Positions 31,801 through 64,000 of a stretch of DNA of 64,000 bases are shown one piece after another. Below the pieces are notes generated by a model that saw only the letters and a program-made list of their open reading frames with translations, was not told the DNA's origin and searched no databases. Within the stretch, counting starts at the first letter, position 1; every line of letters starts with the position of its first letter. This DNA is from Acidimicrobiales bacterium (GTDB taxonomy: Bacteria; Actinomycetota; Acidimicrobiia; Acidimicrobiales; Aldehydirespiratoraceae), in assembly GCA_965116865.1 (NCBI GenBank), contig OZ220727.1, positions 1,156,798 through 1,220,797 of the forward strand, in the 5' to 3' direction. Both the position numbers and the translations under genes were made by a program.

Positions 31801-32136
31801 TGTCCCGAGTGGCTAGTTCCTCGCGGTTGTGTCTTTGCGGTGGTCGGCGTTTCTGGCGGCACGCCGGTCGGTGAACAGCGGCCGACTGGCGAGCACTCTC
31901 ATGTCACCGTCTCGCGCCCCCTGACCGTTCTTGATGCAGTTGACCGTCCATGAGACGCACAACTGCATCAAGAACGGCCGGGCACCCCACAGGCGCCGCA
32001 GACCCCGCGGCTGGACCGACAATTGGATCGACAACCGCAACGAGCATCCGCACCCCTCCGTGTGGCGCATGACCGCCGACGAGAACCCGAGACCATCGCA
32101 GCATATCTGCAACGCATTCCCCACTCGGGACACTAG
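31797..32136. mobile_element. 340-bp element bounded by perfect 16-bp inverted repeats (MITE-like)
   Basis: CTAGTGTCCCGAGTGG at 31797-31812 and CCACTCGGGACACTAG at 32121-32136. An internal perfect 18-bp-stem hairpin lies at 31925-31977. There is no convincing ORF. The left repeat contains the coxL stop TAG. Confidence 0.6.
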
Positions 32137-32154
32137 CGCGCTGTTGGCTGAGGT

Positions 32155-34188
32155 TCAGGCGACTGCGAAGAGCCGGTTCCCGGCGGCGGGTCGGTGGTGT
32201 CCGCTTGTCGGCGGCGGCGCCGGCGGCGGGTCGGGTGCGTGTGCTGGTCCGTGGCGGGTCTGTTCGGGTGGGTGCAGGGTGTGGTTGCCGTCGGGGTTTT
32301 TGCGGATGCGCCAGTTGTGGTGGTGGATCTTCTGGTGGCAGTCCCAGCAGACGGGGGTCATGTTGTCGAGTTTGGTGGATCCGCCCTGAGCGACGGGTTT
32401 GATGTGGTGGATCTGGCACAGCGCGGGGTGCGCCGCGCAGTGGAAGCATCCGCCGTGGCGGGCCAGCAAGATCTGGCGCTGGGACTCGGTGGCGGTGCGG
32501 ACCGAGTGCGTCCGCCAGATCGGCTTGCCGTCGCGGTCGTACACCAGGCCGGTCAGTCTGGCGTTGCACGAGAGCTCCTCCAGCACAGCCCGCGGCAGCC
32601 GGGTGCCGTCGGGCAACTCCGCGACGAGCCTGCCAGTGGCACCGTCGACATGGGCGACCACACAGATGTCCGCTATCGGCCGGCCACCACCCCCGACACT
32701 GCGGCCGGAGCCGTCTGCTCGGCTGTTGCCGGGACCGTCTGCTCGGCCGCTGGTGTCGTTGTTGCGGGAGCCGCCTGCTCGGCCGCTGTCGTTGTTGCGG
32801 GAGCCGCTGTCGTTGTTGCGGGAGCCGCCTGCTCGGCCGCTGTCGTTGTTGCGGGAGCCGCTGTCGTTGTTGCGGGAGCCGCCTGCTCGGCCGCTGGTGT
32901 CGTTGTTGCGGGAGCCGCCTGCTCGGCCGCTGTCGTTGTTGCGGGAGCCGCTGTCGTTGTTGCGGGAGCCGCCTGCTCGGCCGCTGGTGTCGTTGTTGCG
33001 GGAGCCGCTGTCGTTGTTGCGGGAGCCGCCTGCTCGGCCGCTGTCGTTGTTGCGGGAGCCGCTGTCGTTGTTGCGGGAGCCGCCTGCTCGGCCGCTGGTG
33101 TCGTTGTTGCGGGAGCCGCCTGCTCGGCCGCTGTCGTTGTTGCGGGAGCCGCTGTCGTTGTTGCGGGAGCCGCCTGCTCGGCCGCTGGTGTCGTTGTTGC
33201 GGGAGCCGCCTGCTCGGCCGCTGTCGTTGTTGCGGGAGCCGCTGTCGTTGTTGCGGGAGCCGCCTGCTCGGCCGCTGGTGTCGTTGTTGCGGGAGCCGCT
33301 GTCGTTGTTGCGGGAGCCGCCTGCTCGGCCGCTGGTGTCGTTGTTGCGGGAGCCGCCTGCTCGGCCGCTGGTGTCGTTGTTGCGGGAGCCGCTGTCGTTG
33401 TTGCGGGAGCCGTTGTTGTGGGGTTTGTCTGTTGGGGTGTTGGTGGTGGTGAGGGCGTCGAGGGCGTCGGCCATGCATTGACCGAAATTGCGGCGGCCGG
33501 TTCCGTCGGCGGGGGCTTTCTTGTCGGCGCTGTGCATGCGAGCGGCTTGCGAGCGCAGCCGGTTGGCGACGCGTCTGCCGGTCACCGGGTCGAGCTCGCC
33601 GCGGAGATGGACCATCCCGTCGTCGCCGTCCCAGACACGAACACAGCGCCGCGCCCGCGAACGGCGATGCTGGGACTCCCCGTCGTCGCCGTCGCGGTCG
33701 ACCACCCACCGGCGAGCCTCTCGGGCGAACTGCTCGGGACGCATCGACACAGCCTTCGCCAACAGCTCCCCGTCGCCGTCGACAGCGCTGGCGCCGGCCG
33801 TCTCGGAAGCTTCGGCCAGCCGCCGCGCGTTCGCCGCGGACACCCGCCCCGACTCGACCGCATCACGCGCCGCGGGCGCCTCCCGCAACGCCTCGGCCGT
33901 CTTTAGGTGGCTGCGGGCCTCGCGCCGCGACAACCCGGCCGAACCCGCCAGCACCTCAGCGCCGCCGTCGCCGTGACGCTCACGGCCCGCCACCGCCGCC
34001 GCAGCCGACACCTGCGCAGCCGACAGCGCCGCCATCGCCGACCTCGACACCGCCAGCATCTCACGCAACTCCGAACACGACGCCGCGCCCGCGCCCACCA
34101 GCTCCAGCATCTCGGAGGCAGCGGCCTCGGCCCGACGAGCAGCTTCGATCAACATGCACACAGCATCCCACAGGGCTATGACATCCAC
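32155..34188 (-). CDS. DUF222/HNH endonuclease (REP13E12-type) with about 230-aa internal tandem-repeat expansion
   Basis: The N-terminal region resembles the mycobacterial 13E12 repeat family. The C-terminal HNH segment is CFHCAAHPALCQIHHIKPVAQGGSTKLDNMTPVCWDCHQKIHH. The middle is (GSRNNDSGSRNNDTSGRAGG)n. Confidence 0.8.
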   Translation of the reverse strand: MDVIALWDAVCMLIEAARRAEAAASEMLELVGAGAASCSELREMLAVSRSAMAALSAAQVSAAAAVAGRERHGDGGAEVLAGSAGLSRREARSHLKTAEALREAPAARDAVESGRVSAANARRLAEASETAGASAVDGDGELLAKAVSMRPEQFAREARRWVVDRDGDDGESQHRRSRARRCVRVWDGDDGMVHLRGELDPVTGRRVANRLRSQAARMHSADKKAPADGTGRRNFGQCMADALDALTTTNTPTDKPHNNGSRNNDSGSRNNDTSGRAGGSRNNDTSGRAGGSRNNDSGSRNNDTSGRAGGSRNNDSGSRNNDSGRAGGSRNNDTSGRAGGSRNNDSGSRNNDSGRAGGSRNNDTSGRAGGSRNNDSGSRNNDSGRAGGSRNNDSGSRNNDTSGRAGGSRNNDSGSRNNDSGRAGGSRNNDTSGRAGGSRNNDSGSRNNDSGRAGGSRNNDSGSRNNDSGRAGGSRNNDTSGRADGPGNSRADGSGRSVGGGGRPIADICVVAHVDGATGRLVAELPDGTRLPRAVLEELSCNARLTGLVYDRDGKPIWRTHSVRTATESQRQILLARHGGCFHCAAHPALCQIHHIKPVAQGGSTKLDNMTPVCWDCHQKIHHHNWRIRKNPDGNHTLHPPEQTRHGPAHAPDPPPAPPPTSGHHRPAAGNRLFAVA
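32710..33412. repeat. coding compound tandem repeat (21- and 39-bp sub-units)
   Basis: Alternating gccgctgtcgttgttgcgggagcc and gcctgctcggccgctggtgtcgttgttgcgggagcc blocks span about 700 bp. Confidence 0.9.
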
Positions 34189-34595
34189 CCCCCACAGCCC
34201 CCATCCTCACGCATTTCTCGATACTCCTCCACGCGAAAACTCCCACCAACCACACGATCCCGCGGATCCAGCGCCGCCGTCGCCGTGACGCTCACGGCCC
34301 GCCACCGCCGCCGCAGCCGACACCTGCGCAGCCGACAGCGCCGCCATCGCCGACCTCGACACCACCAACATCTCACGCAACTCCGAACACGACGCCGCGC
34401 CCGCGCCCACCAGCTCCAGCATCTCGGAGGCAGCGGCCTCGGCCCGACGAGCGGCTTCGATCAACATGCACACAGCATCCCACAGGGGTATGACATCCAC
34501 CCCCCACAGCCCCCATCCTCACGCATTTCTCGATACTCCTCCACGCGGAACTCCCACCAACCACGCGATCCCGCGGATCTAGCGCCGCCGTCGGT
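33957..34595. repeat. 311/312-bp tandem duplication covering the 5' end and upstream region of the HNH gene
   Basis: The segment cagcgccgccgtcgccgtgacgctcacgg starts at 33957 and 34269, with a third partial start at 34580. By eye the copies are about 97% identical. Confidence 0.9.
34207..34500 (-). pseudogene. duplicated N-terminal fragment of the DUF222/HNH gene
   Basis: MDVIPLWDAVCMLIEAARRAEAAASEMLELVGAGAASCSELREMLVVSRSAMAALSAAQVSAAAAVAGRERHGDGG is nearly identical to residues 1-76 of the 32155..34188 product. It then diverges and stops. Confidence 0.8.
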
Positions 34596-34662
34596 TGTCG
34601 TGGTCATCTTCGACGACCTCGTCGAGGCCATCCATGCGGTTCCGCGGATCTAGCGCCGCCGC
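34571..34662. repeat. X-Y-X junction repeat, period 71 bp
   Basis: The segment ccgcggatctagcgccgccg occurs at 34571 and 34642. Confidence 0.75.
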
Positions 34663-34719
34663 CGTTGCCGTGTCCGTCGGTTCGGGGCCCCGGGCTGTTG
34701 CCGCGCGCCGACCGGTTGG

Positions 34720-35121
34720 ATGGACGTGACCCGCTTCGGGCGCTGCGCGGCTGCGCCGAACTGCTCTGCTGTCATCGACCCGGCGCCGCGCGGATGGATC
34801 GTCGCGCTGGTGTCGGCCGAGGAGACCGCCGCCCAGACAGCGTTCTGCGACGCCTTCGAAGCCGAGGACCTCGTCGGCGCCGTCGAGGGCCGCCCCGGCG
34901 CCGGCGAACTTCCCGGCAGCGACGAGATCCCCGTCTTGTCGGCGGTCTCCGACAACGGCGCGCCCGCGACCGTCGACGCCGCCGAGGCGTTCATGGCGCT
35001 GTGCTCGACCGTGCAGCACCCCGACCGGCCCGACACTCCCACCGACCAGGTGCCGCAGCGGCGCGTGCAGAGAACGTTGGACGCCCCAACGCCGGGAATG
35101 GCCGGTGCTTCGCACTCATAG
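34720..35121 (+). pseudogene. integrase-core (rve) transposase fragment
   Basis: SAVIDPAPRGWIVALVSAEETAAQTAFCDAFEAE ... VLSAVSDNGAPATVDAAEAFMALCSTVQHPDRPDTPTDQ follows the rve-domain pattern (viD..sR.ivgw ... hSDNG ... P.dN). It lacks both N- and C-terminal parts. Confidence 0.5.
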
Positions 35122-35742
35122 TGTTGGTGGTGTCTTCGATGGGTGCGGGTCTGACTCGGTGCTTCGCTGGCTTCGTGTCTTGCAAACGATCTGTCGGCTG
35201 GTGCCCGTCGGGGACGCGCGCCAGCCGGTCGGAGGGAATGTGACCTGATAGGAGCCTCGGTTCGAGCGCCTTGAGTGTATTGTCGGTTGTTCCGGCCGGT
35301 GGTGCCCAGCCAGCTGGAAGTGGTCCAAAGGAAGGGCAGACCGATTGTGCCAGATGTACAACGAATCGTCATGGGTGGGGTGGACACCCACCGTGACGAG
35401 CGCACGGTAGGTGTCCATCGATTTGGCGGGGCGGCTGCTGGGCACGGCCTCGTTCGCGGTGACACGGGAAGGCTATGGGCAGCTACTGGGGTGGTTGCGC
35501 AGTCTCGGCGGGGTGGAGTGTGTCGGAGCAGAGGGCACCAGCAGCTACGGCGCGGGCCTGGCGCGTCGTCTCGCAGCGGAGGGCGTGAGCGTGGTCGAGG
35601 TGCTGCGCCCCAAGCGCGGGGCGCGCCGCGGGGACAAGTCGGATCCCGCGGATACCGAGGCGGCCGCGCGGGCTGTGCTGTCAGGAGAGGCCACAGCCCG
35701 CCCGAAGTCCGCTGACGGCCCGGTGGAGGCGATCCGGGTGCT

Positions 35743-35850
35743 GCGCGCCGCGCGGCGCTCCGCGGTCAAGGCCCGCACCCGAATCGCTGCTGCCTGCCTC
35801 GCTCACGGCTCACGCGCGCCGCGCGGCGCTCCGCGGTCAAGGCCCGCACC
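35743..35850. repeat. X-Y-X repeat, period 71 bp, disrupting the IS110 transposase frame
   Basis: The segment gcgcgccgcgcggcgctccgcggtcaaggcccgcacc occurs at 35743-35779 and 35814-35850. Confidence 0.9.
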
Positions 35851-36218
35851 GCCGCCGTCAACCAGATCAAAGCGCTGTTGGTGACCGCCCCCGAGCAGAT
35901 CGCCGCCCCGCTGCGGGGCCTTCGCACCGCCGCTTTGGTCGGTGCCTGTGCTCGACTGCGGCCCGATACCGCCGGCGGCGAGGCTGCCGGCGCGGCGAAG
36001 AGGACCATGCGCGGCCTGGCGCGACGGCACCGGGCGCTCAGCGGCGAGATAGACGAGCTCGACGCTGAGATCGCCCGCCTGTGCATGCAGGCGAATCCCG
36101 CTTTGATGGCCGCGCCCGGCGTCGGCGCGCAGACTGCCGCCGCGCTGCTCGTCGCCGCTGGCGACAACCCGCGGCGCCTGCACAGCGAGGCGTCCCTCGC
36201 GGCGCTCTGCGGAGCCGG

Positions 36219-36306
36219 CCCCATCGAGGCGTCCTCGGGGCGCACAATGGCTGTCCTCGTGGGCCGCGACAGCCAGTCGCCCCATCGAGGCGTCCTCGGG
36301 GCGCAC
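36219..36306. repeat. X-Y-X repeat, period 61 bp, disrupting the IS110 transposase frame
   Basis: The segment ccccatcgaggcgtcctcggggcgcac occurs at 36219-36245 and 36280-36306. Confidence 0.9.
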
Positions 36307-36454
36307 CGTGCGCCACCGCCTCAACCGCGGCGGCGACCGAGCAGCCAAACTCAGGACATTAGAGACCGAGCGCTTTGCGCAGTACCTCGTCGATGGCGCG
36401 GCGGCGTCGCAGCCGCCGGACCTGGCCCCTGATCCGCACCGATAGACCGTCTCG

Positions 36455-36703
36455 ATGTCCAAGGGCGCCTGCTGCGAGGCCGACGGACCACCGCCAGAGA
36501 ACGAGATACCGGTAGCCGACTACTTCCTGCAGTGCGCTGTCGAGGACGGCGAGAGCGAACAGCACATCGCCGAGCGCGTCGCGGCCGCCCTCTCGAACGG
36601 CACATCATGGAAGCGAGTCGCCGAGATCCTCGGGGTGTCAGTCGGCGAGGCCGAACGGCGCTTCGCTCACCTCCGGGCCAGCACATCGCCCGAACAGTCG
36701 TAG
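36455..36703 (+). CDS. small hypothetical protein with possible helix-turn-helix
   Basis: 82-aa ORF. SWKRVAEILGVSVGEAERRF looks HTH-like. No Shine-Dalgarno sequence was seen. Confidence 0.3.
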   Translation: MSKGACCEADGPPPENEIPVADYFLQCAVEDGESEQHIAERVAAALSNGTSWKRVAEILGVSVGEAERRFAHLRASTSPEQS

Positions 36704-36765
36704 AAGCTCCAACAGCGGGCGAGAGTCGCCGTCGGCGGACCACCACTGCCGCAGTTCACGAACAG

Positions 36766-37026
36766 TACCGGCCGAGGCTAGTCAGGGGACCTCCGTCGAC
36801 AGCGTCGTGGTGTTCCCATACGGTGCCGAGTTCGAGGCACCGGCCGAAGCTGGTCAGAGGACCTCCGTCGACAGCGTCGTGGTGTTCCCATACGGTGCCG
36901 AGTTCGAGGCACCGGCCGAAGCTGGTCAGAGGACCTCCGTCGACAGCGTCGTGGTGTTCCCATACGGTGCCGAGTTCGAGGCACCGGCCGAAGCTGGTCA
37001 GGGGACCTCCGTCGACAGCGTCGTGC
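36766..37026. repeat. 72-bp tandem array (3.6 copies)
   Basis: The segment gacctccgtcgacagcgtcgtg starts at 36788, 36860, 36932 and 37004. Confidence 0.95.
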
Positions 37027-38392
37027 TGGAGCTGGCCGACCCGCTCGGCCCGTGGGGCACCCGCCGGGCGGTCAATTGGCGGGCGGCACCCGGCTGGTAG
37101 CGTTCGCTGCGGGGACGGGCGTTGTAGTTCTCCATCCATTCCTGCACGTCGGCGTCGTTGTCGAAGTCGACGCCGTCGGCGATCATGTCGGTGACGATGT
37201 TGGTGGTGGCCGACCTCTTGGCCGGGTCCGCCGCGTTGGCCCTCATATCGCCGAACGCCCCTCGGGCCGCCTCGAGGTTCTCCTGCAACCGGTCCTGCGC
37301 GAGGCCCCGTTGCTGCGCCGCGAAGCGCAGCCATTGCGGGAACACCGACTCGACGACGTCGTGCCACCCCTCGTCGCACACCGACTTGGCCGGTATCCAC
37401 ACACTCACGAACTCCACAACCCTTCGCGGGCTCCAGCACAGCACATCACCGTCCCACCATGCTTCAGAGAACCGGCAGGCCGCCGCGAGCACCGTGTCGG
37501 CGTCGGAGGCGTCCCGCTCGTCGACCACGGCGCGGAACTCCCCGCGGAGGTCGTCGATCTCCTCGTCGGTCAGCCATCGGGGCCCGTGCTCCTCACCACA
37601 TGCCGGCAGCAGCCCGATCCGATGCTCCAACAGCGCCCTCAGCTTCTCGTCCATCATTTCGTCGTCACCGCCGTTGTCGCCGCCGTTGTCGCCGCCATGG
37701 CGGAGCGCCGCTGCGACGTCCTGCACCTCCAGAGCGGCCTCGACGATCACCCGAGCGTCACCCAGGCTGATCTCCTCCACTACCGCGTCGGGCCACTGCT
37801 TGAATTCTGCGGCCACCGTCTCAACCGCCGGGCCGTAGGCGAGACTGCTCGCGCCCTTGCCTGCCGTCGCGTGGACTGCGACGCCCATCCCCCGCACCGC
37901 GCCGTCGGGGCGCTGGAAGTCGATCCACACCGCTCGCTCGTCTCCCCATGGGTCGGTGAGCAGCACCGAGCGGCGCGGCACGACATCGCCGAGCGCCGCA
38001 GCCCAGCCAGGCGGCGGCTCACCGTCACCGGCCAACTGCTCCAACAGGTCATGCGCCTGGGCCCGGCATCCGGGCGGCCCGTACACCCCCATCGCCGCGG
38101 CCACCGCCCCGGCCGCGGCACGGTCGTCGCAGACCTCCGCCGCGGCCAGCACCCTCGGCGCAGCCATCGCGGGATCGCACGCGTAGACGAAGGGACGGAA
38201 CAGCGCCTGTATCGACGACGCCCAATACTCCGCCACGTCGAGGTCGGTGAGGACTGCGGCGTCGGCGGCGTCCGTCAACAGCACCTGTTCCAGCTGCGGT
38301 TCCGGGCCCGCAGCCGCCCTGAGGCGATCGCCGGGCCTGGTCCCTTTCGGCGTGACGCGACCGCCCCCGCAGCGGCGCTTCGGTCGTGGCAT
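36998..38392 (-). CDS. hypothetical protein (Arg/Lys-rich N-terminus MPRPKRRCGGGRVTPKGTRPG)
   Basis: Long ORF with coding-like composition. The preferred start is ATG 38392. The last roughly 20 codons are antisense read-through of the coxL-like fragment and repeat. Confidence 0.6.
   Translation of the reverse strand: MPRPKRRCGGGRVTPKGTRPGDRLRAAAGPEPQLEQVLLTDAADAAVLTDLDVAEYWASSIQALFRPFVYACDPAMAAPRVLAAAEVCDDRAAAGAVAAAMGVYGPPGCRAQAHDLLEQLAGDGEPPPGWAAALGDVVPRRSVLLTDPWGDERAVWIDFQRPDGAVRGMGVAVHATAGKGASSLAYGPAVETVAAEFKQWPDAVVEEISLGDARVIVEAALEVQDVAAALRHGGDNGGDNGGDDEMMDEKLRALLEHRIGLLPACGEEHGPRWLTDEEIDDLRGEFRAVVDERDASDADTVLAAACRFSEAWWDGDVLCWSPRRVVEFVSVWIPAKSVCDEGWHDVVESVFPQWLRFAAQQRGLAQDRLQENLEAARGAFGDMRANAADPAKRSATTNIVTDMIADGVDFDNDADVQEWMENYNARPRSERYQPGAARQLTARRVPHGPSGSASSSTTLSTEVP
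37007..37068 (+). other. 62-bp ectopic copy of an internal coxL segment
   Basis: This segment matches coxL 31604-31665 at about 58 of 62 positions in the same orientation. The matching peptide is TVDSVVLELADPLGPWGARG. Confidence 0.85.
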
Positions 38393-38467
38393 GTGCGGCC
38401 CCCTTGTTCTCTCCGGCACGGAACCGATCTGGGCATCGTCGCGCACCGACCGGATCCGTCTCTTCTA

Positions 38468-38819
38468 GCCGCGGCCGACGCACAACTGGGCGATCCCCCG
38501 CCGACCCAGCGTCGAGGCACCGACCACCCTCGGAATCCTCCTCAAGCCGCGGCCGACACACAACTGGGCGATCCCCCGCCGACCCAGCGTCGAGGCACCG
38601 ACCACCCTCGGAATCCTCCTCAAGCCGCGGCCGACACACAACTGGGCGATCCCCCGCCGACCCAGCGTCGAGGCACCGACCACCCTCGGAATCCTCCTCA
38701 AGCCGCGGCCGACACACAACTGGGCGATCCCCCGCCGACCCAGCGTCGAGGCACCGACCACCCTCGGAATCCTCCTCAAGCCGCGGCCGACACACAACTG
38801 GGCGATCCCCCGCCGACCC
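38468..38819. repeat. 78-bp tandem array (4.5 copies) in a divergent intergenic region
   Basis: The segment gccgcggccgac starts at 38468, 38546, 38624, 38702 and 38780. Confidence 0.95.
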
Positions 38820-44004: not shown

Positions 44005-44550
44005 GGAAGACCCCCGCGTGGGCGGCGCCTCAGACGGTCCACCTCCTCGCAGACCCGGCGCTTGGGGAAGACCCCCGCGTGGGCGGCGCCTCACCCCCGG
44101 ATCCGTCGCAGCGCCTCTGTCGCGTTCATCGGCAAAGCGGTCCGCACCCGCGTGGGCGGCCCTTCACCCCCGGATCCGTCGCAGCGCCTCTGTCGCGTTC
44201 ATCGGCAAAGCGGTCCGCACCCGCGTGGGCGGCCCTTCACCCCCGGATCCGTCGCAGCGCCTCTGTCGCGTTCATCGGCAAAGCGGTCCGCACCCGCGTG
44301 GGCGGCCCTTCACCCCCGGATCCGTCGCAGCGCCTCTGTCGCGTTCATCGGCAAAGCGGTCCGCACCCGCGTGGGCGGCCCTTCACCCCCGGATCCGTCG
44401 CAGCGCCTCTGTCGCGTTCATCGGCAAAGCGGTCCGCACCCGCGTGGGCGGCGCCTCACTCCCGGATCCGTCGCAGCGCCTCTGTCGCGTTCATCGGCAA
44501 AGCGGTCCGTACCCGCGTGGGCGGCCCTTCACCCCCGGATCCGTCGCAGC
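44005..44550. repeat. tandem array, 8 X copies (first interval 61, then 75, then 72 bp x5), seeded on the HIT gene stop
   Basis: The segment acccccgcgtgggcgg / acccgcgtgggcgg starts at 44010, 44071, 44146, 44218, 44290, 44362, 44434 and 44506. The unit contains ccttcacccccggatccgtcgcagc, which is the last 6 codons plus the TGA of the HIT gene. Confidence 0.95.
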
Positions 44551-48595: not shown

Positions 48596-49654
48596 TCACG
48601 GGCCGCTGTCGTCGGTCTCGTCGAAGATGTCGCCCACCAGGCCCTCGAGGATGTCCTCCAGGGTGACCACGCCCAGCATGCGCCCGGTGTCGCTTCGCAC
48701 CAGAGCCATGTGAACTCGCGACCGCCGCATGTCGAGCAGGAGGTCGCGACCGGCCATATCAGGGCCCACCACCCGCATGCGGCGCACCAACTCCAACGGC
48801 AGCGGATCGTCGCAGGCCTCCTCCGGCATGCGGATCAGGTCCTTGGCGTGGACGAACCCCAGCACGTCGTCGGGTTCCGACCCCCACATCGGGATCCGGG
48901 TGTGTCCGGTGGCGGCCACCACATCCTCGAGTCGGGCCGCGGACGCCCCCCGGGGCACGGACACCAGCCGGTCGGCGGGCACCATCACCGATCCGACCGA
49001 CTGGGCACGGAACTCCAGCGCGCCCGACAGCAACTCGTGCTCGGTGGGCTCGATCACGCCCTCCTCGCGGGCGCCCGCGAGCAGCGTCCGGAACTCGTTG
49101 ATGGTGAGCGCGGTGTTGATCTCGTCCACCGGATTGATGCCCATCAGGCGCACGATGCGGTTCCCCACGAAGTTGAGGGACGCGATGACCGGTCTGAACA
49201 CTGCACCGTAGATGCGCATGGCCGGCGCCAGCAGCCGTGCCGACGCCTCCGGCTCGGCAATGGCCATGTTCTTGGGGACCATCTCGCCCACCACCACATG
49301 CAGCGTCGTCACCACGAACAGCGCCACCGCGAAGGAGATCGTGTGCAGGACGCCGGACGGAACCTCCACGACCCTCTCGATGACCGGCTCGATGAGGTGG
49401 GCGATGGCCGGCTCGGCCACATAGCCCAGCACCAGCGAGGCCATGGTGATGCCGAACTGGGCTCCAGCGAGCTGGGTCTGCAGGTCGCGCACCGCTGCCA
49501 GGGCGATGCCGCTGCGCCTGTCGCCGTCGGACGCGGCCGCCTCCAAGCGAACAGCACGGGCCGCGACCAGCGCGAACTCGGCCGCCACGAAAAAGGCGTT
49601 GGCCCCGAGCATCACCACCGCCACAACCAAGGCTACGACCGTCGCCGTGCTCAC
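48596..49654 (-). CDS. CNNM/CorC/TlyC family protein (DUF21 + CBS pair)
   Basis: GTG 49654 gives VSTATVVALVVAVVMLGANAFFVAAEFALV (DUF21), followed by CBS-pair-like regions. The track ORF start at 49849 lies inside the repeat. Confidence 0.8.
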   Translation of the reverse strand: MSTATVVALVVAVVMLGANAFFVAAEFALVAARAVRLEAAASDGDRRSGIALAAVRDLQTQLAGAQFGITMASLVLGYVAEPAIAHLIEPVIERVVEVPSGVLHTISFAVALFVVTTLHVVVGEMVPKNMAIAEPEASARLLAPAMRIYGAVFRPVIASLNFVGNRIVRLMGINPVDEINTALTINEFRTLLAGAREEGVIEPTEHELLSGALEFRAQSVGSVMVPADRLVSVPRGASAARLEDVVAATGHTRIPMWGSEPDDVLGFVHAKDLIRMPEEACDDPLPLELVRRMRVVGPDMAGRDLLLDMRRSRVHMALVRSDTGRMLGVVTLEDILEGLVGDIFDETDDSGP

Positions 49655-49876
49655 CGCGACACCCCCGAACCGACCAAGCACCGACCCCGCCGAAAAAAAC
49701 AGCCCACAACCGTCGCCGCGCTCACCGCGACACCCCCGAACCGACCAAGCACCGACCCCGCCGAAAAAACAGCCCACGACCGTCGCCGTGCTCACCGCGA
49801 CACCCCCGAACCGACCAAGCACCGACCCCGCCGAAAAAACAGCCCGCAACCGTCGCCGTGCTCACCGCGACACCCC
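49636..49876. repeat. 70/71-bp tandem array (3.4 copies) seeded on a GTGA stop/start junction
   Basis: The segment g(t/c)gctcaccgcgacaccccc occurs at 49647, 49718, 49788 and 49858. The A7 tract at 49693-49699 contrasts with A6 tracts in the other units. Confidence 0.95.
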
Positions 49877-51235
49877 CGGTGCTGCCGGGCCGCACCCGTC
49901 CCTTCGCCCCAGCGCGGGCGCGGCTACGGATACGACAGGCGCCGCCACCCGGACAGCGGCGATCCTCAAACGGTCGACAGCCACCACCTCGAGGCGCCAG
50001 CCGTCCACGGTGACGACCTCGCCGGGCACCGGTATGTGGCCCAGCCTGTCCAGCACCAGCCCGGCCAGCGTCTCGTAGCCGCCTTCGGGCATGGCGAAGC
50101 CGGTAGCGTCGAACACCTCGTCGGTGTGCAGCGACGCGGACAGCACCGTCGAGCCCCGGGACTCGGACCGGGTGCGCTCAGGGGTGGACGAGTCGTGCTC
50201 GTCGTCGATCTCACCGACGATCTCCTCAAGCACGTCCTCGAGGGTGATGATCCCCGCCGTGCCGCCGTGCTCGTCGACCACCACGGCCAGCAGACCCGCG
50301 CCGGCGCGCAGGTCGTGCAGGATGTCGTTGAGATCGCGGGACTCGGGCACGGCAAGCACCGGCTGCATCAACTGCGACACCGGCGTGGAATGCCGTTGCG
50401 GCCCGGGCACGGCGAACAGCGATTTCACATGGACCACGCCGGCCACGTTGTCGAGATGGCCCGCCGTGACCGGAAACCGGGAATGGCCGGTGCCGACGGC
50501 CAGTTCGGCGAGGTAAGCCACCGAGGCGTCGGCCTCGATGGCGACCACCTCCACCCTGGGCACCATGGCGTCGTCGGCCTGCTTGTCGGCCAGGCGGATC
50601 GACCGGGTGAGCAGCCACACCTCGTCCTCGTCGAGCATCCCCCCCTGCCCCGATGAAACGAAGAGGTGTTCGAGTTCGTCGCGATCAGGCACCGTGTCTA
50701 TCTCCTCGCGCGGCTCCATGCCGAGTCGGCGCACCATCCAGTTGGCCGCGCCGTTGAGGAAAGCCACCACAGGCCGGGCCAGCACGCCGTACACGGTGGT
50801 CGGAACGGCCACCGCCACCGCTGTCCCGAAGGGCTTCGTGGTGGCCACCGCCTTGGGGACGAGCTCGCCCATCATCATCTGCACGATCGTGGCCAGCATC
50901 AGCGCGACCGCGACGGACACGCCCGAGGGCGTGTTGCCCCCGAACAGCGCCTCGACTCCGGGCGCAATCATCGGCGCCAGGGCCGGTTCGACCATGAAGC
51001 CGAGAAGCAACGACGAGACCGTGATGCCGATCTGCGCGCCCGACAGGTGAAACGACAGCCGGGCCACCAAGCGCTGGACCATCCGGGCCCGGCGGTCTCC
51101 GGCCCCTGCCCGTTCGTCCACTCGGGTGCGGTCCACCGCCACCAGCGCGAACTCCATGGCGACGAAGAAGGCGTTGGCTGCCATCAGCGCGAGAGCGGCC
51201 AAGAGCCACAGCGCGGTCTCTATCGGTCCTCCCAA
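49862..51235 (-). CDS. CNNM/CorC/TlyC family protein (DUF21 + CBS pair + CorC_HlyC)
   Basis: N-terminus LLAALALMAANAFFVAMEFALVAVDR, then CBS-like segments and the C-terminal transporter-associated domain. 457 aa. Confidence 0.85.
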   Translation of the reverse strand: MGGPIETALWLLAALALMAANAFFVAMEFALVAVDRTRVDERAGAGDRRARMVQRLVARLSFHLSGAQIGITVSSLLLGFMVEPALAPMIAPGVEALFGGNTPSGVSVAVALMLATIVQMMMGELVPKAVATTKPFGTAVAVAVPTTVYGVLARPVVAFLNGAANWMVRRLGMEPREEIDTVPDRDELEHLFVSSGQGGMLDEDEVWLLTRSIRLADKQADDAMVPRVEVVAIEADASVAYLAELAVGTGHSRFPVTAGHLDNVAGVVHVKSLFAVPGPQRHSTPVSQLMQPVLAVPESRDLNDILHDLRAGAGLLAVVVDEHGGTAGIITLEDVLEEIVGEIDDEHDSSTPERTRSESRGSTVLSASLHTDEVFDATGFAMPEGGYETLAGLVLDRLGHIPVPGEVVTVDGWRLEVVAVDRLRIAAVRVAAPVVSVAAPALGRRDGCGPAAPGVSR

Positions 51236-59318: not shown

Positions 59319-60677
59319 TCACCGGTGTGCGCTGCCGCCAGAGAGATGCTCCACTAGCCGTTCCAGCCCGGCGACCCGCGATCCCTTCACCAGCACGGCC
59401 GATGAATCGTCCAAGGGACCGATGCCTGCCAGTGCGGCCAGGGCTCCGGCGATGCCCTCTGCCTCCACGGCTGCGGCTCCGCCCGACGAATAGAGCGGCG
59501 CGTCGACTGCGATCACCTTGATTCCGAGCTGTCCTGCCAACGAGCCGACGGCGGCATGCTCCGCGGCTTCGAACTCCCCGAGTTCCGCCATAGTGCCCAG
59601 CACGGCGATACGGCGCGAGGCTGGCAGCGCTGCCAAGGCGCGCAGGGCCGCCCGCATCGACAGCGGATTGGCGTTGTAGGTGTCGTTCAGGAGTCTGGCG
59701 CCCCCTGCAGTCCGCACGACCTCCATACGCAACGGCGACAGCGTCGGCTCCGCCAGCCCCGCCGCCACATCGTCCAGCGCCACCCCGAGTTCGATGCCGA
59801 CCGCGGCTGCGGCCAGGGCATTGTCGACCGAATGCAGGCCGCGGGCTCCCAGCTCGACCTCGATCTCCCCGGCCGGGCTCTGAAGCACGAAGCGGGGGGT
59901 GAGTTCGTCATCGAGGGTGAGGTTCCGTGCCCGCACCTCGCCGCCGGCGCCGAATGTGACCACCCGGACGTCCGCGGCCTTCGCCATGGCGGCCACCTCG
60001 GGCACGCCCGAGTTGAGGAAGGCCACTCCCCCGACGCCGGCAGCGGGGAGGCACTCGACCAGCTCCCGCTTGGCCGCCACCACCGCGGCGAGCGACCCCA
60101 GCTCGCTGGTGTGCGACAGCCCCACCGTGGTGACCACGCCCATGGTCGGACGGGCCACACGACACATTTCGGCGATGTGCCCGGCGCCCCTCGAACCCAT
60201 CTCGACCACCAGCGCTTCGACGTCGTCCGGGGCCGACAGCAGAGTGATCGGCACTCCGATCTCGTTGTTGAACGACCGGGTGCTGGCCCACACCCGTCTG
60301 TCCCGCCCGAGCACCGCTGCCAGCAGGTCCTTGGTGATGGTCTTGCCCACCGACCCGGTCACGCCCACCACCGGCGCCGACCCGAGCCGGCGCCGTGCAG
60401 CGCAGGCCAGGGCGGTCAACGCTGCCAGGGTGTCGTCCACCTCCACCGCGGCGGCGTCGACACCGACGGGCCCGCGGGCGGTCAGATAGGCGGACGCGCC
60501 TGCTGCGACCGCATCGGCGATGAAGTCGTGACCGTCGCGCTCGGCCACCAGCGGGACGAACAGCATGCCCGGCTGCACGTCTCGGCTGTCCTGGATGGCG
60601 CCGTCGATCGTGGCGGCACCGTCGCCGCGCAGGCAGCCCCCGGTGGCCGCCGCGACCTCATCGAGCGTCCAGCGCAT
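59319..60677 (-). CDS. murF: UDP-N-acetylmuramoyl-tripeptide--D-alanyl-D-alanine ligase
   Basis: ATG 60677 gives MRWTLDEVAAATGG...IQDSRDVQPGMLFVPL. P-loop VGVTGSVGKTITKD. The C-terminal end is Mur-ligase-like. The upstream 181 codons of the track ORF are repeat read-through. Confidence 0.85.
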   Translation of the reverse strand: MRWTLDEVAAATGGCLRGDGAATIDGAIQDSRDVQPGMLFVPLVAERDGHDFIADAVAAGASAYLTARGPVGVDAAAVEVDDTLAALTALACAARRRLGSAPVVGVTGSVGKTITKDLLAAVLGRDRRVWASTRSFNNEIGVPITLLSAPDDVEALVVEMGSRGAGHIAEMCRVARPTMGVVTTVGLSHTSELGSLAAVVAAKRELVECLPAAGVGGVAFLNSGVPEVAAMAKAADVRVVTFGAGGEVRARNLTLDDELTPRFVLQSPAGEIEVELGARGLHSVDNALAAAAVGIELGVALDDVAAGLAEPTLSPLRMEVVRTAGGARLLNDTYNANPLSMRAALRALAALPASRRIAVLGTMAELGEFEAAEHAAVGSLAGQLGIKVIAVDAPLYSSGGAAAVEAEGIAGALAALAGIGPLDDSSAVLVKGSRVAGLERLVEHLSGGSAHR

Positions 60678-60708
60678 GCCGCGAGTGTTGCACGCCCAGC
60701 CACGGCTG

Positions 60709-60885
60709 GCAGAACAAAGCACGCGCGCGCACGCCATGCACGACCGGTGCGCGTGTTTGGACCGAACACGCGCACCGGTGGCAGAACAAAGCGCGCGCAC
60801 GCCATGCACGACCCCGGTGGCCCGGCCCCGGTGGACGGCCCGCAGCCGCGCAGAACAAAGCACGCGCGCGCACGCCATGCACGAC
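60709..60885. repeat. repeat-spacer-like array (X 36/32/36 bp, two unrelated Y of 36 and 37 bp) in the murF/ddl divergent region
   Basis: X (gcagaacaaagc(ac)gcgcgc(gc)acgccatgcacgac) occurs at 60709, 60781 and 60850. Y1 (60745-60780) is a perfect 14-bp-stem hairpin. Y2 (60813-60849) is unrelated to Y1. Confidence 0.9.
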
Positions 60886-60935
60886 GCTGCCATTTCGGCG
60901 CCGGCGCTAGCGTCGTCGGCGTGGAGGACCGCAGG

Positions 60936-62048
60936 GTGAGGCTGGTCGTGCTGTTCGGAGGACGCTCCGCCGAACACGACGTGTCGTGCGTCTCGGCCCG
61001 TCATGTGGTGGCCGCCGCCGATCCCGCGAAGTACATCGTCGAGCCGGTGGGCATAACCCGGGAGGGCCGCTGGGTGCGGGCGACGGAAGCCCTCGGCGCC
61101 GGCTCCGACGCTCTGCCCGAGCGACTCAGCGCCGCCGGTCAGGAGATCGAGCCTCTGACGCTGGCCGCAGACCGCGGAGACGACCCGTCCCGACCGACGG
61201 TGGTGCTTCCGATCCTGCACGGTCCGATGGGCGAGGACGGAACGGTGCAGGGCTTGCTGGAGCTGGCCCGGGTCCCCTACGCCGGGGCCGGGGTGCTGGC
61301 CTCAGCGCTGTGCATGGACAAGACCGCGGCCGCGACGATGCTGACAGCGGCCGGCATCGCCCACACCCGCTGGCGCAGCATGACGCTCGACGACCCGGAC
61401 GCTAGCGACGCCGCGCTGGCACCGCAGGTCGAGGCCATCGTCGATGATCTCGGCCTGCCGGTGTTCGTGAAGCCGGCCGGCATGGGATCGTCGGTCGGCA
61501 TCTCCAGGGCGGCCACCCGCCGCGGCATAGCCGACGGACTGCGCCTGGCATGCCGCTACGACCGATCCGTCATCGTGGAGGAGGAGGCCCGTGCCCGCGA
61601 GATCGAGGTGGCCGTGCTCGGCAACGACGAGCCCGCAGCGAGCCTGCCCGGTGAGATAGTCCCCGGCGCGGACTTCTACGACTACGCAGACAAGTACGAC
61701 GACGGCGCCGATCTGCTGGTCCCGGCGCCCCTCGACGACGACGAGACCGACGCTTGCCGGAGCCTCGCCGTCGCCGCCTACCGGGCGCTGCGGGCGGAGG
61801 GCCTGGCCCGGGTGGACTTCCTGTACGAGGACGGGCGCGGCGGGCGCGGCGACCGGGGCTGGATGGTGAGCGAACTGAACACGATGCCGGGCTTCACTCC
61901 CATATCGATGTACCCGAAGCTCTGGGCCGCGACCGGGCTCACCTACCCCCGGCTCATCGACCGTCTCGTGGAGCTTGCCCTGGAACGCCACGCCCGCCGC
62001 GAGCACCACACCCGCACCGATCCCGACACCGCCCTTCGCTTCGACTGA
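60936..62048 (+). CDS. ddl: D-alanine--D-alanine ligase
   Basis: GTG 60936 with GGAGGA 7 nt upstream. VVLFGGRSAEHDVSCVSA, ILHGPMGEDGTVQGLLEL and ELNTMPGFT. Confidence 0.9.
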   Translation: MRLVVLFGGRSAEHDVSCVSARHVVAAADPAKYIVEPVGITREGRWVRATEALGAGSDALPERLSAAGQEIEPLTLAADRGDDPSRPTVVLPILHGPMGEDGTVQGLLELARVPYAGAGVLASALCMDKTAAATMLTAAGIAHTRWRSMTLDDPDASDAALAPQVEAIVDDLGLPVFVKPAGMGSSVGISRAATRRGIADGLRLACRYDRSVIVEEEARAREIEVAVLGNDEPAASLPGEIVPGADFYDYADKYDDGADLLVPAPLDDDETDACRSLAVAAYRALRAEGLARVDFLYEDGRGGRGDRGWMVSELNTMPGFTPISMYPKLWAATGLTYPRLIDRLVELALERHARREHHTRTDPDTALRFD

Positions 62049-62520: not shown

Positions 62521-63279
62521 TCACCCAGCCTGACCCTCAGCCGCTCCGGGTTGGATGTCGAGGAGGGGGCCGAGCTCCCGGAGGCGGGCGCGTCGTATGC
62601 GGTAGTCGGGCACGGCCTGGGCGACCACAGCCCAGTATTCGGGCGTGTGGCCGCGGACGCGCAGGTGTGCGAGCTCGTGGGCGATCACGTAGTCGAGGAG
62701 GGCGGGCGGGGCCATGACGGCACGCCAGTTGAAGCGCAGCGTGCCGTCCGGGGCGCAGCTCGCCCAGCGGCGGCGCTGACCGCGGACGAGGACCGCTTTC
62801 GGCTGCGCGCCGAGGAGGCTCGCGATGCGCTCCACGCGCGGCGGGAGCTTCAGCGCGGCGCGGTCGCGGTACCACGCCTCGAATGCGGCCCGCACCTTCT
62901 CGAGCCGTTCCTCGCCTCGCAGAAAGCGGGGGACGCCGACGTCGAACTCCCAGTGGTGGAACCCGACCTCGACCCTGGCGCCGTCGATGGGATGCACGGT
63001 GAGGCGCACCGACCGGCCGAGATAGGGCAGGGACTCGCCGCTGACGAACCGGCGGGGCGGTGCGCACGCCGTGGCCGCGCCGTCGTGCCGGACGATCCAG
63101 CCGGCACGGCGACGCACAGTCTCCTCGACTTGCTCCGCAGGCGTGTCGACAGGCGCCGCCACCCTGACGACACCGGGCGCATCGACGGTGACCTCGATCG
63201 TCTTGCGCCGTCTCGGGCTGCGGACGACCTGGTACTCGATCCGGGCTTCGCCGAAGACGACCTCCCCGCGCTCTGTCAC
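62521..63279 (-). CDS. DUF45/YgjP-like (M48-type) zinc metallopeptidase
   Basis: The HELAHL zinc motif lies within LDYVIAHELAHLRVRGH. The real start is GTG 63279 (VTERGEVVFGEARIEYQVVRS). This gene type is a common companion of type I R-M systems. Confidence 0.8.
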   Translation of the reverse strand: MTERGEVVFGEARIEYQVVRSPRRRKTIEVTVDAPGVVRVAAPVDTPAEQVEETVRRRAGWIVRHDGAATACAPPRRFVSGESLPYLGRSVRLTVHPIDGARVEVGFHHWEFDVGVPRFLRGEERLEKVRAAFEAWYRDRAALKLPPRVERIASLLGAQPKAVLVRGQRRRWASCAPDGTLRFNWRAVMAPPALLDYVIAHELAHLRVRGHTPEYWAVVAQAVPDYRIRRARLRELGPLLDIQPGAAEGQAG

Positions 63280-63450
63280 ACGAGCCTCTTGCGGGCCATC
63301 TCCATGACCTTCGAGCACCGCGACGACGACGCCGTACAGGCCCGCGTCACACGAGCCTCTTGCGGGCCATCTCCATGACCTTCGAGCACCGCGACGACGA
63401 CGCCGTACAGGCCCGCGTCACACGAGCCTCTTGCGGGCCATCTCCATGAC
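63275..63450. repeat. 71-bp tandem array (X-Y-X-Y-X) seeded on the hsdR stop / DUF45 start GTGA junction
   Basis: X (gtcacacgagcctcttgcgggccatctccatgac) occurs at 63275, 63346 and 63417. Y (cttcgagcaccgcgacgacgacgccgtacaggcccgc) occurs twice. Confidence 0.95.
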
Positions 63451-64000
63451 TTGGCGGGCCAGCTCCTCGACCTCGCCCTCGTCGTAAGGGCCGGCACGCA
63501 GGCGGCGCTTAATGTCGCGCCGCACCTCGCGCTGGCTCTCGAGGTTCTCGTGCCAGTCGAGCAAGGACTGGAGGTTCCGAACGATCTCCTCGATGTCGAG
63601 GGCCGTCTCTTTGACCCTGGCGTCAAGGTCGGCGGGTTGGAGCTCCAGGTGCTCCGATGCTGCGGGTGAGGAGCCGCCGGGGTCGCCTGCCTCGGTGCGT
63701 TTGCGGCCCAGCAGGCCGTACACCGCGTACGCCATCGGCGTGAGGCCCTGGTCTGCGGCGAACATTTCCTCCTGAGTGACCTGCTCGCGCAGCGCGGCCA
63801 TGCGTTTGCAGCCCTCGGCCGCGTCGATCACCTTGCCCCGCAGCTCGCCGATGATGCGGGCGAGCGCCTCCGAGAGCCTCTCGTAGAGGGCGGGATTCTC
63901 TGCGACCCGCTCGTTGATCTGGGCCCGCAGCGCGTGCTCCATCAGCGAGGCCCGCGCCTCGTCGTGGGGCAGGCTCTCGATCTTCTGTTCGAAGTCGCGG
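63418..64000 (-). CDS. hsdR: type I restriction enzyme R subunit, C-terminal part (gene continues beyond the window)
   Basis: The frame is open to the window edge. FEQKIESLPHDEARASLMEHALRAQINERVAENPALYERLSEALARII resembles the HsdR C-terminal (DUF3387-like) region. It ends MEMARKRLV. Confidence 0.7.
   Translation of the reverse strand, partial: RDFEQKIESLPHDEARASLMEHALRAQINERVAENPALYERLSEALARIIGELRGKVIDAAEGCKRMAALREQVTQEEMFAADQGLTPMAYAVYGLLGRKRTEAGDPGGSSPAASEHLELQPADLDARVKETALDIEEIVRNLQSLLDWHENLESQREVRRDIKRRLRAGPYDEGEVEELARQVMEMARKRLV

What the first reader, a model, noticed from the sequence alone, without database searches (positions are those of the whole stretch)
63275..63450. The hsdR-DUF45 GTGA junction is amplified into an array of in-frame 24-codon mini-ORFs
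hsdR ends AAG AGG CTC GTG TGA. The DUF45 peptidase gene starts with the GTG that overlaps that TGA (GTG ACA GAG, 63279). The 34-bp X covering the junction occurs three times at exactly 71-bp spacing.

Because 71+1 is divisible by 3, each unit encodes VTRACTASSSRCSKVMEMARKRLV. The mini-ORF starts at one GTGA and stops at the next. Its last 9 residues copy the HsdR C-terminus. Translational coupling can therefore be relayed from hsdR through two mini-ORFs to the DUF45 gene.

This is the cleanest example in the window of junction-preserving amplification. Track ORFs 62521..63318 and 63276..63626 are artefacts of it.
Basis: partly seen in the sequence, partly recalled or inferred. Interest (0 to 1): 0.75.

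Follow-up and report, generated by a model that had tools for sequence, protein, structure and literature searches.

The report
Young 71-bp repeat at gene overlap
A perfect 71-base tandem repeat has recently formed exactly where a restriction-enzyme gene and its partner peptidase gene overlap; it leaves both genes intact and creates two tiny relay reading frames, but it is one of many such young repeats in this sponge-type symbiont genome rather than a purpose-built device.

Summary
Window 63275-63450 holds a 71-bp unit repeated 2.48 times at 100% identity: X(34)-Y(37)-X-Y-X on the minus strand. X carries the last 10 hsdR codons, a Shine-Dalgarno-like AAGAGG and the GTGA stop/start overlap.

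In 18 of 20 related junctions, across three phyla, hsdR and the DUF45 gene share one GTGA/ATGA overlap and no repeat. The 142 extra bases are therefore derived.

It is not a simple amplification of the junction. Only X is native; Y matches nothing I could search.

The array is one of 11 near-perfect arrays (45-98 bp periods) in 64 kb. About 476 kb from more distant relatives has none. At sister loci I found an allelic series of 0, 1 and 4 extra units, and a 2.4 versus 3.4 copy polymorphism between samples. At two sister loci Y is a mutated re-copy of the adjacent native flank.

Best reading: a young, lineage-specific minisatellite. It is tolerated because a duplication across a stop/start overlap keeps both gene ends, and because 71 = 2 mod 3 makes internal ORFs stop at the next start. 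Relay of translational coupling is possible but untested, and the frame fit is near chance. The closest analogue is the mycobacterial MIRU.

The parts
63418..64000 (-). 3' end of hsdR (type I restriction R subunit), 193 visible codons. Stop TGA at 63420..63418. The gene runs off the window.
   Evidence: Pfam PF11867 T1RH-like_C, E = 3.3e-13. The frame is intact to the window end and matches L001 HsdR (RDFEQKIESLPHDEARASLMEHAL...).
63417..63450 (-). X copy 1 (34 bp), contiguous with hsdR. Contains the last 10 hsdR codons, AAGAGG (63432..63427) and GTGA (63421..63418).
   Evidence: X matches the relatives' junctions over 36 nt.
63380..63416 (-). Y copy 1 (37 bp), orphan spacer.
   Evidence: Found only inside the array. 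No donor in the window, L038 or the relatives. No match in JGI metagenomes or IMG/VR. Similarity to either native flank is at chance level, p about 0.3.
63346..63379 (-). X copy 2 (internal), with AAGAGG 63361..63356 and GTGA 63350..63347.
63309..63345 (-). Y copy 2, identical to Y copy 1.
63275..63308 (-). X copy 3, contiguous with DUF45. This is the native translation-initiation region: AAGAGG 63290..63285, GTG 63279..63277.
63347..63421 (-). Mini-ORF 1: 24 codons plus stop. GTG overlaps the hsdR TGA, and its own TGA overlaps the next GTG.
63276..63350 (-). Mini-ORF 2: identical 24 codons. Its TGA overlaps the DUF45 GTG.
62521..63279 (-). DUF45 / YgjP-like (M48/SprT-type) metallopeptidase gene, 252 aa, HELAH motif present. 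True start is the GTG at 63279.
   Evidence: Pfam PF01863, E = 1.4e-51, covering 1-206 of 207 profile positions. The N-terminus V/M-T-E-R-G-E is conserved in relatives. Called as 252 aa on L038.

Best explanation
The array is a young, lineage-specific minisatellite (VNTR-type tandem duplication) that arose at the hsdR-DUF45 stop/start overlap.

Step 1 (inferred). A local duplication event of about 70 bp turned A-X-B into A-X-Y-X-B. At two sister loci Y is demonstrably an error-ridden re-copy (substitutions plus indels) of the native flank next to X. That suggests a template-switch or slippage duplication whose first few dozen bases were synthesised with very low fidelity. For this array Y is too different from either flank to prove the same origin.

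Step 2 (inferred here; shown by allelic series at sister loci). Slippage or unequal exchange between the X copies added a second Y-X unit.

Step 3 (inferred: the selection filter). The event survives for three reasons. A tandem duplication spanning a 4-nt overlap automatically keeps an intact hsdR end and stop in the first X. It keeps an intact SD and start for DUF45 in the last X. And 71 = 2 mod 3 makes ribosomes that start at internal GTGs terminate on the TGA overlapping the next GTG, so they do not run out of frame into DUF45.

A relay of termination-reinitiation from hsdR through two 24-codon ORFs to DUF45 is therefore possible. It is a tolerated by-product rather than the reason the array exists.
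For: Ancestral state:
- One GTGA/ATGA overlap and no repeat in 18 of 20 relatives' junctions.
- The flanks around the 142-bp insertion are almost identical to L001.

Genome-wide phenomenon:
- 11 arrays with periods of 45-98 bp in 64 kb, 4.2% of the window.
- 0 such arrays in about 413 kb of RM-centred loci and 0 in 63 kb of syntenic loci from relatives at 82-88% aa identity.
- Array units are unrelated to each other.
- At least 10 of 11 arrays avoid gene interiors, P about 2e-5.

Youth and dynamics:
- 78-bp locus: L045 (96-98% nt identity) has X only, L047 has X-Y-X, and the window has X-(Y-X)4.
- 70-bp DUF21 junction array: 2.4 copies in JGI contig L046 (99.1-99.4% identity) versus 3.4 in the window.
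- L047 has its own perfect 72 x 2.9 array where the window is single-copy.

Flank origin of Y at sister loci:
- L047 patch: 31 of 37 bases identical to the native flank, p = 0.0016.
- DUF21 array: 27 of 40, p = 0.016.

Frames and expression:
- All four junction configurations are frame-benign.
- No promoter-like or terminator-like site in the array.
- Predicted accessibility of the gene-proximal initiation region is not reduced: 0.62 versus 0.49 in the reconstructed ancestor.

Reality of the array: present on a second contig.
Against: - For this array the flank origin of Y is not demonstrable: p about 0.3 against either flank. The combined test over all arrays is p = 0.14-0.19.
- No copy-number variation was seen for this array itself. 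Only two contigs were available, and both carry 2.48 copies.
- The mechanism that would produce an error-rich patch is hypothetical.
- The clustering of periods around 70-78 bp is unexplained.
- hsdR upstream of the window could not be read for this genome.
Confidence: 0.65

Rival explanations
1. Adaptive expression device. The array is a contingency-type locus whose copy number and relay mini-ORFs tune how much DUF45 peptidase is made per HsdR, by attenuating or relaying termination-reinitiation.
For: - The 4-nt overlap is conserved across three phyla, so coupling probably matters.
- Frames are benign in all four junction configurations. In the DUF21 array the only 71-bp unit is the gene-proximal one, which closes the chain.
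- Copy number is polymorphic at the analogous DUF21 junction.
Against: - The frame fit is near chance, about 0.2 overall (my estimate).
- Each X has its own SD, so no relay is needed.
- Most arrays in the window are not at overlapping junctions.
- Both available contigs carry the same copy number.
- Internal initiation regions are predicted to be more structured, 0.25-0.27 unpaired.
Confidence: 0.12
2. Insertion of captured DNA with a long target duplication. A staggered-cut integration, or end-joining with filler DNA, placed a foreign or distant 37-bp fragment (Y) and duplicated the 34-bp target (X). Cas1-Cas2-like off-target spacer integration would be one such route. The unit was then amplified.
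For: - Y of this array is orphan.
- The X/Y sizes (34/37) resemble CRISPR repeat/spacer geometry.
- Most arrays have n.5 copies, the X-(Y-X)n form.
- A nested second X''(28)-Y''(33)-X'' lies at the same stop codon at 44013..44100.
Against: - At two sister loci Y derives from the adjacent flank.
- X ranges from 18 to 48 bp and Y from 25 to 39 bp, so there is no ruler.
- Spacers within an array are identical.
- No Cas Pfam domain appears among the called genes within +/-10 kb.
- No donor was found for five Y segments in IMG/VR or for this Y in JGI metagenomes.
Confidence: 0.12
3. Assembly or sequencing artefact: the repeat is not in the organism's DNA.
For: The units are 100% identical. Copy numbers of perfect repeats can be mis-assembled. 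The second contig comes from a low-coverage (4x) assembly, possibly of the same sample.
Against: - The array is identical on two contigs.
- Sister arrays are confirmed in independent samples and assemblers (JGI 3300003175, Logan SRR23561550, ENA ERZ24894577), with an allelic series and a copy-number polymorphism.
- An artefact would not invent a unique 37-bp Y.
Confidence: 0.03

Closest known systems
Mycobacterial interspersed repetitive units (MIRU-VNTR; Supply et al. 1997, as summarised in PMC12548453)
   Same: Tandem 40-100-bp units in an Actinomycetota genome, sitting between co-directional genes. Each unit carries a small ORF whose stop/start overlaps the neighbouring start with -4 nt spacing, so the insertion has minimal impact on the downstream gene. 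Copy number varies between strains.
   Different: MIRUs are one dispersed, sequence-related and apparently mobile family. Here every array has its own unit, built from local sequence (X) plus an orphan or scrambled segment (Y). There is no shared consensus. The host is an uncultured Acidimicrobiia, not Mycobacterium.
[quoted passage not shown]
   Same: Host-associated bacterium. Many locus-specific tandem repeats confined to non-coding regions. Active expansion and contraction between strains.
   Different: The details of the Ehrlichia repeats could not be read here because the papers are not held. I have no evidence that stop/start-overlap junctions, relay ORFs or scrambled junction patches were described there.
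CRISPR arrays / off-target 'neo-CRISPR' spacer integration
   Same: Roughly 34-bp direct repeats separated by roughly 37-bp spacers, period about 71 bp. The repeat is a duplicated target.
   Different: The spacers are identical within the array. Repeat length is not constant between arrays (18-48 bp). No cas genes lie nearby. At two sister loci the 'spacer' is a mutated copy of the flank.
Translational coupling at 4-nt ATGA/GTGA overlaps (termination-reinitiation; review PMC12548453)
   Same: Each X reproduces the conserved hsdR/DUF45 overlap together with an upstream SD-like AAGAGG. Short upstream ORFs can deliver ribosomes to a coupled gene.
   Different: Here the overlap is triplicated, with two non-conserved 24-codon ORFs in between. 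No expression data exist.

Membership tests
Bacterial minisatellite / VNTR | Head-to-tail repeats of a 10-100-bp unit with high identity | tested here: met
   71 bp x 2.48 copies, 100% identity.
Bacterial minisatellite / VNTR | Copy number differs between strains or samples | tested here: inconclusive
   This array has 2.48 copies on both available contigs. Sister arrays differ: 2.4 versus 3.4 copies, and 0, 1 and 4 extra units.
MIRU | Member of a dispersed family of sequence-related units found at many loci | tested here: not met
   Units of the 11 arrays share only chance matches of 12 nt or less. Y-Y comparisons give a maximum z of 3.6 among 132 tests. Only the 45-bp unit at 14904 is dispersed.
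MIRU | Unit ORF whose stop and start overlap those of the flanking genes (-4 spacing) | tested here: met
   GTGA at 63421, 63350 and 63279. The 24-codon ORFs chain hsdR to DUF45.
MIRU | Host is Mycobacterium | tested here: not met
   Relatives are Acidimicrobiia MAGs (Ca. Aldehydirespiratoraceae and allies).
CRISPR array | Constant repeats separated by different spacers | tested here: not met
   The two Y copies are identical.
CRISPR array | cas genes or a leader nearby | tested here: not met
   Pfam labels of called genes within +/-10 kb show RM, toxin-antitoxin, murF, ddl and amidase genes, and no Cas domains. The rest of the genome was not searched.
Translationally coupled gene pair (termination-reinitiation) | Stop/start overlap conserved in relatives | tested here: met
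   18 of 20 relatives' junctions have GTGA or ATGA.
Translationally coupled gene pair (termination-reinitiation) | Downstream translation depends on upstream translation | not testable with these tools
   Needs reporters or Ribo-seq.
Type I R-M operon with YgjP-like/DUF45 peptidase | HsdR C-terminal domain followed by a YgjP-like metallopeptidase, with hsdM and hsdS upstream | tested here: met
   PF11867 and PF01863. HsdM, HsdS and HSDR_N/ResIII lie upstream on L042.

The most novel reading that the evidence does not exclude
A lineage of sponge-type Acidimicrobiia (the window's 3.32-Mb genome and a 4.12-Mb relative) harbours an active, undescribed mutational process. It creates roughly 70-bp tandem duplications with an error-scrambled patch at the joint, at up to hundreds of gene boundaries. 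These then expand and contract as VNTRs. At stop/start overlaps they generate de novo relay mini-ORFs or N-terminal extensions. That would be a natural system for studying translational coupling across inserted ORFs and the birth of new coding sequence.
Probability: 0.25. Interest if true: 0.75.

Novelty: new variant of a known kind. Interest (0 to 1): 0.5.

Why it matters
If the relay works, this locus and its DUF21 sister locus (which has natural 2-unit and 3-unit alleles) are ready-made natural experiments. They would show how far termination-reinitiation can be chained through meaningless short ORFs.

More broadly, the window shows a bacterial lineage with an exceptional density of young, locus-specific minisatellites: 4.2% of the sequence, against none in more distant relatives. 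Their internal halves appear to be scrambled copies of local DNA. That points to an unusual replication or repair behaviour in an uncultured symbiont, possibly linked to genome reduction. It would also be a source of new short ORFs and protein extensions.

For annotation, such arrays systematically create spurious ORFs and wrong start calls.

Tried and rejected
1. 'hsdR is a pseudogene, so coupling is moot.' I inferred this from about 13 frameshifts on contig L038 and then withdrew it. All 8 differences between L038 and the window lie in 63964..63994, and the window reads in frame like intact HsdR there. The 174-aa fragment is on record only for the 4x contig. A search for a full-length HsdR was inconclusive.
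2. Units as a dispersed MIRU/REP-like family: rejected.
3. Y copied from elsewhere in the window, L038 or 41 related loci: no match. The best local score was 33, against 27.1 +/- 2.6 (max 36) for shuffles.
4. Y or X in JGI metagenomes: 0 hits. Five different Y segments in IMG/VR: 0 hits.
5. Y as a copy of X or an inverted copy of the flanks: not significant.
6. Y as a scrambled copy of the adjacent flank, tested on all arrays: combined p = 0.19 with shuffles and 0.14 with genomic decoys. It is significant only at the 78-bp locus (L047) and the DUF21 locus, not for this array.
7. Unusual base composition of Y, which would suggest untemplated synthesis: GC is 69%, the same as the genome, with only mild skew.
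8. Special secondary structure of the units: z is between -3.6 and +1.7 and is not general. No Rfam family matches. No promoter-like or terminator-like sites.
9. A closer allele of this junction: the listed DUF45 cluster members are all about 91% identical or less.
10. The Ehrlichia repeat papers (PMC545511, PMC1428390) are not held.

Full report
OBSERVATION

Both genes lie on the minus strand. hsdR runs off the window end. Its visible 193 codons carry Pfam T1RH-like_C, and it ends AAG AGG CTC GTG TGA with the stop at 63420..63418.

TRF reports 63275..63450 as a 71-bp unit, 2.5 copies, 100% identical. The structure is X-Y-X-Y-X.
- X is 34 bp, at 63417, 63346 and 63275.
- Y is 37 bp, at 63380 and 63309.
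- Neither is expected by chance.

On the coding strand, X contains three things: the last 10 codons of hsdR, an SD-like AAGAGG 5 nt upstream of a GTG, and the GTGA in which that GTG overlaps the TGA.
- The GTGs at 63421 and 63350 each open a 24-codon ORF (VTRACTASSSRCSKVMEMARKRLV) that stops on the TGA overlapping the next GTG.
- The GTG at 63279 opens the 252-aa YgjP-like/DUF45 metallopeptidase gene.

The two 'track ORFs' are mechanical consequences of the array.

A second contig, L038, is identical to the window from 63963 to 51617 and carries the same array.

ANCESTRAL STATE

A scan of reference genomes with the DUF45 protein returned 37 loci. They come from uncultured Acidimicrobiia (including Ca. 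Aldehydirespirator), Tepidiformaceae/Dehalococcoidia and a Vicinamibacteraceae MAG, with up to 90% aa identity.

In 18 of the 20 junctions I printed, hsdR and the DUF45 gene share one GTGA or ATGA and there is no repeat. L001 is almost base-identical to the window on both sides of the insertion.

So A-X-B became A-X-Y-X-Y-X-B. X is native: it matches relatives over 36 nt. Y is new.

L006, and several MAG proteins of 261 aa, carry an independent 57-bp X2-Y2-X2' duplication on the DUF45 side of the same junction. It reads in frame as a 19-residue N-terminal extension.

NOT A ONE-OFF

The window holds 11 near-perfect arrays with periods of 45-98 bp. Eight have periods between 70 and 78 bp. Together they make up 4.2% of the sequence. 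Most have n.5 copies, the X-(Y-X)n form.
- Their units are unrelated to one another. The exception is a 45-bp unit that belongs to a short dispersed element.
- At least 10 of the 11 lie in intergenic DNA or overlap a gene terminus, P about 2e-5 for random placement.
- About 413 kb of RM-centred loci, and 63 kb of syntenic loci from relatives at 82-88% aa identity, contain none.

A second array spans a stop/start overlap: 49638..49878, between two DUF21/CNNM genes.
- Relatives have a single ATGA/GTGA there.
- In the window the units measure 70, 70 and 71 bp.
- This again gives an unbroken chain: upstream stop/GTG, then 47 codons, then TGA/GTG, then 24 codons, then TGA/GTG at the true start.

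YOUTH AND DYNAMICS

Closer relatives were found through two window proteins.

At the 78-bp locus (38460..38819):
- L045 (Logan SRR23561550, 96-98% nt identity) has one native X of 51 nt.
- L047 (a 4.12-Mb genome from ENA ERZ24894577) has X-Y-X.
- The window has X-(Y-X)4.

L047 also has its own perfect 72 x 2.9 array at a gene junction where the window is single-copy.

The JGI contig L046 (sample 3300003175, record 'SP3TswiDRAFT') is 99.1-99.4% identical to the window. It carries the DUF21 array with 2.4 rather than 3.4 copies. In that allele the first GTG reads in frame into the gene, giving 399 = 352 + 47 aa, and the second GTG relays to the true start.

The arrays are therefore real, recent and variable in copy number. 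They are shared by a narrow clade. For the hsdR-DUF45 array itself, only two contigs were available, and both have 2.48 copies.

WHERE Y COMES FROM

Y of this array has no match in any of the following:
- the window, L038 or the related loci;
- JGI metagenomes or IMG/VR;
- X or an inverted flank.

Its GC content equals the genome's.

The allelic series gave the key lead. In L047, the last 10 nt of X plus Y form a substitution- and indel-ridden copy of the native sequence that follows X: 31 of 37 bases identical, p = 0.0016 against genomic decoys. At the DUF21 junction, Y likewise resembles the first 37 nt or so of the downstream gene: 27 of 40, p = 0.016.

The flanking genomes differ by only about 3%, while the patch differs from its source by roughly 16% or more. 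The scrambling must therefore have arisen at or near the birth of the duplication, not by slow divergence. This step is inference.

For the hsdR-DUF45 array, similarity of Y to either flank is at chance level (23-25 of 37 bases, p about 0.3). All-array tests are also not significant (p = 0.14-0.19). Those tests have little power, though: the window's own 78-bp Y reaches only p = 0.03-0.05.

A local origin of Y here is therefore the most economical reading, but it is not shown.

FUNCTION

Shown:
- The array keeps an intact hsdR end in the first X and an intact SD and start for DUF45 in the last X.
- It adds no promoter-like or terminator-like site.
- It does not lower the predicted accessibility of the DUF45 initiation region: 0.62 versus 0.49 in a reconstructed ancestor. 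The internal copies are at 0.25-0.27. This is soft evidence.

Frame logic, which follows from the sequence:
- Unit length = 2 mod 3 gives a stop at the next start (relay).
- Unit length = 0 mod 3 gives an in-frame extension.
- Unit length = 1 mod 3 gives out-of-frame read-through into the gene.

All four junction configurations seen are benign: this array, the two DUF21 alleles and L006. By my estimate the chance of that is only about 0.2.

[quoted passage not shown] 1997). But it is neither required, since each X has its own SD, nor demonstrated.

CORRECTION MADE DURING THE WORK

I first took hsdR to be a pseudogene, because L038 shows about 13 frameshifts. The window itself is in frame where L038 is not. 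All differences between the two start at 63964. The fragment protein is recorded only for the 4x contig.

The degraded hsdR therefore belongs to a variant or low-coverage contig. The status of hsdR upstream of the window is unknown (one search was inconclusive).

COMPARISON AND VERDICT

The array works like a MIRU: a tandem unit between co-directional genes, with a mini-ORF overlapping the stop and start. It fails the defining MIRU feature of being a dispersed, sequence-related family.

As a genome-wide population of variable intergenic repeats, it resembles the Ehrlichia ruminantium repeats (PMC10710844).

It has CRISPR-like geometry but fails the CRISPR criteria: the spacers are identical, the repeat length varies between arrays, and no cas genes lie nearby.

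I classify it as a new variant of a known kind, a bacterial minisatellite/VNTR. The specific finding is moderately interesting. The more unusual aspects are the density, the youth and the scrambled-patch architecture of these arrays in this lineage.

Noticed in passing
window 14904-14990 and 1556-1593; L002, L008, L019, L020, L039-L041: The 45-bp unit CCCGAGCGGCCCGCGAACGCACCGAAGAACAGCGGGAAACCCAAC is not orphan. Copies of 37-38 nt at about 85% identity occur in both orientations in many related genomes and elsewhere in the window. This is a short dispersed, REP-like element of these Acidimicrobiia.
   Followed up: partly
L038/L042/L043 positions upstream of window 63964 (contig ERZ25072196 ctg183246_4x_l): A 4x-coverage contig is 100% identical to the window for 12.3 kb. 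It then abruptly carries an hsdR with about 13 frameshifts, nearly all in the same direction, plus in-frame stops, while hsdM, hsdS and the neighbouring genes are intact. This is either a co-existing haplotype with a degraded hsdR or a localised assembly problem.
   Followed up: partly
window ~44.0-44.6, 47.1-47.5, 51.3-51.9 and 52.6-53.4 kb, versus L039-L041 and L047: The window genome (3.32-Mb contig) lacks genes that syntenic relatives (3.8-4.6 Mb) carry. These are ABC transporters, an aminotransferase plus Peptidase_S13, and a tRNA-synt_1e-like gene; the xanthine-dehydrogenase cluster that follows the HIT gene in relatives is displaced rather than lost, since L047 copies of it match window 27.7-31.8 kb. 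Several arrays sit at these breakpoints. This suggests ongoing genome reduction and rearrangement.
   Followed up: partly
window 44013-44100: Just beyond the 73-bp x 6.5 array there is a second, nested X''(28 nt, TGAGGCGCCGCCCACGCGGGGGTCTTCC)-Y''(33 nt)-X'' structure. It involves the same stop-codon-proximal sequence, so this would be two independent events at one site.
   Followed up: no
L047 13662-13873 (window counterpart about 29459-29533): The 4.12-Mb relative has its own perfect 72-bp x 2.9 array at the MoCoBD/FAD_binding_5 gene junction, where the window is single-copy. Most of that unit is homologous to the window's single-copy sequence.
   Followed up: partly
L006 5944-6003; proteins P0208, P0216: An independent 57-bp duplication at the same hsdR-DUF45 junction, on the DUF45 side, with diverged copies. 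It gives a 19-residue in-frame N-terminal extension (261-aa DUF45) and is present in several MAGs.
   Followed up: partly
loci L010-L018 versus the window: The hsdR-DUF45 cassette is 71-83% identical at the protein level between Acidimicrobiia (Actinomycetota), Tepidiformaceae/Dehalococcoidia (Chloroflexota) and a Vicinamibacteraceae (Acidobacteriota) MAG. This suggests horizontal spread of this type I R-M module among co-occurring uncultured bacteria.
   Followed up: no
window 31797-37078: Relative to L045 and L047, the window has about 5.2 kb of extra DNA after the 464-aa gene. It includes an IS110-family transposase fragment, a 312-bp x 2 repeat (33957-34593) and a long ORF full of 21/54/90-bp coding repeats (32754-33416). 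The 72-bp array at 36767-37025 lies at its edge.
   Followed up: no
window 60480-60940 (murF-ddl intergenic region): Several dispersed copies of a motif about 40-50 bp long are visible as repeated 'HAMHD/RTKHARARHAR' strings in ORF translations. TRF did not call them as a tandem array.
   Followed up: no
window 24092-24320 and 5725-5858: Short-period arrays inside high-GC3 ORFs: 15 bp x 15.5 and 18 bp x 7.3. They are probably in-frame coding repeats and a different class from the roughly 70-bp arrays.
   Followed up: no
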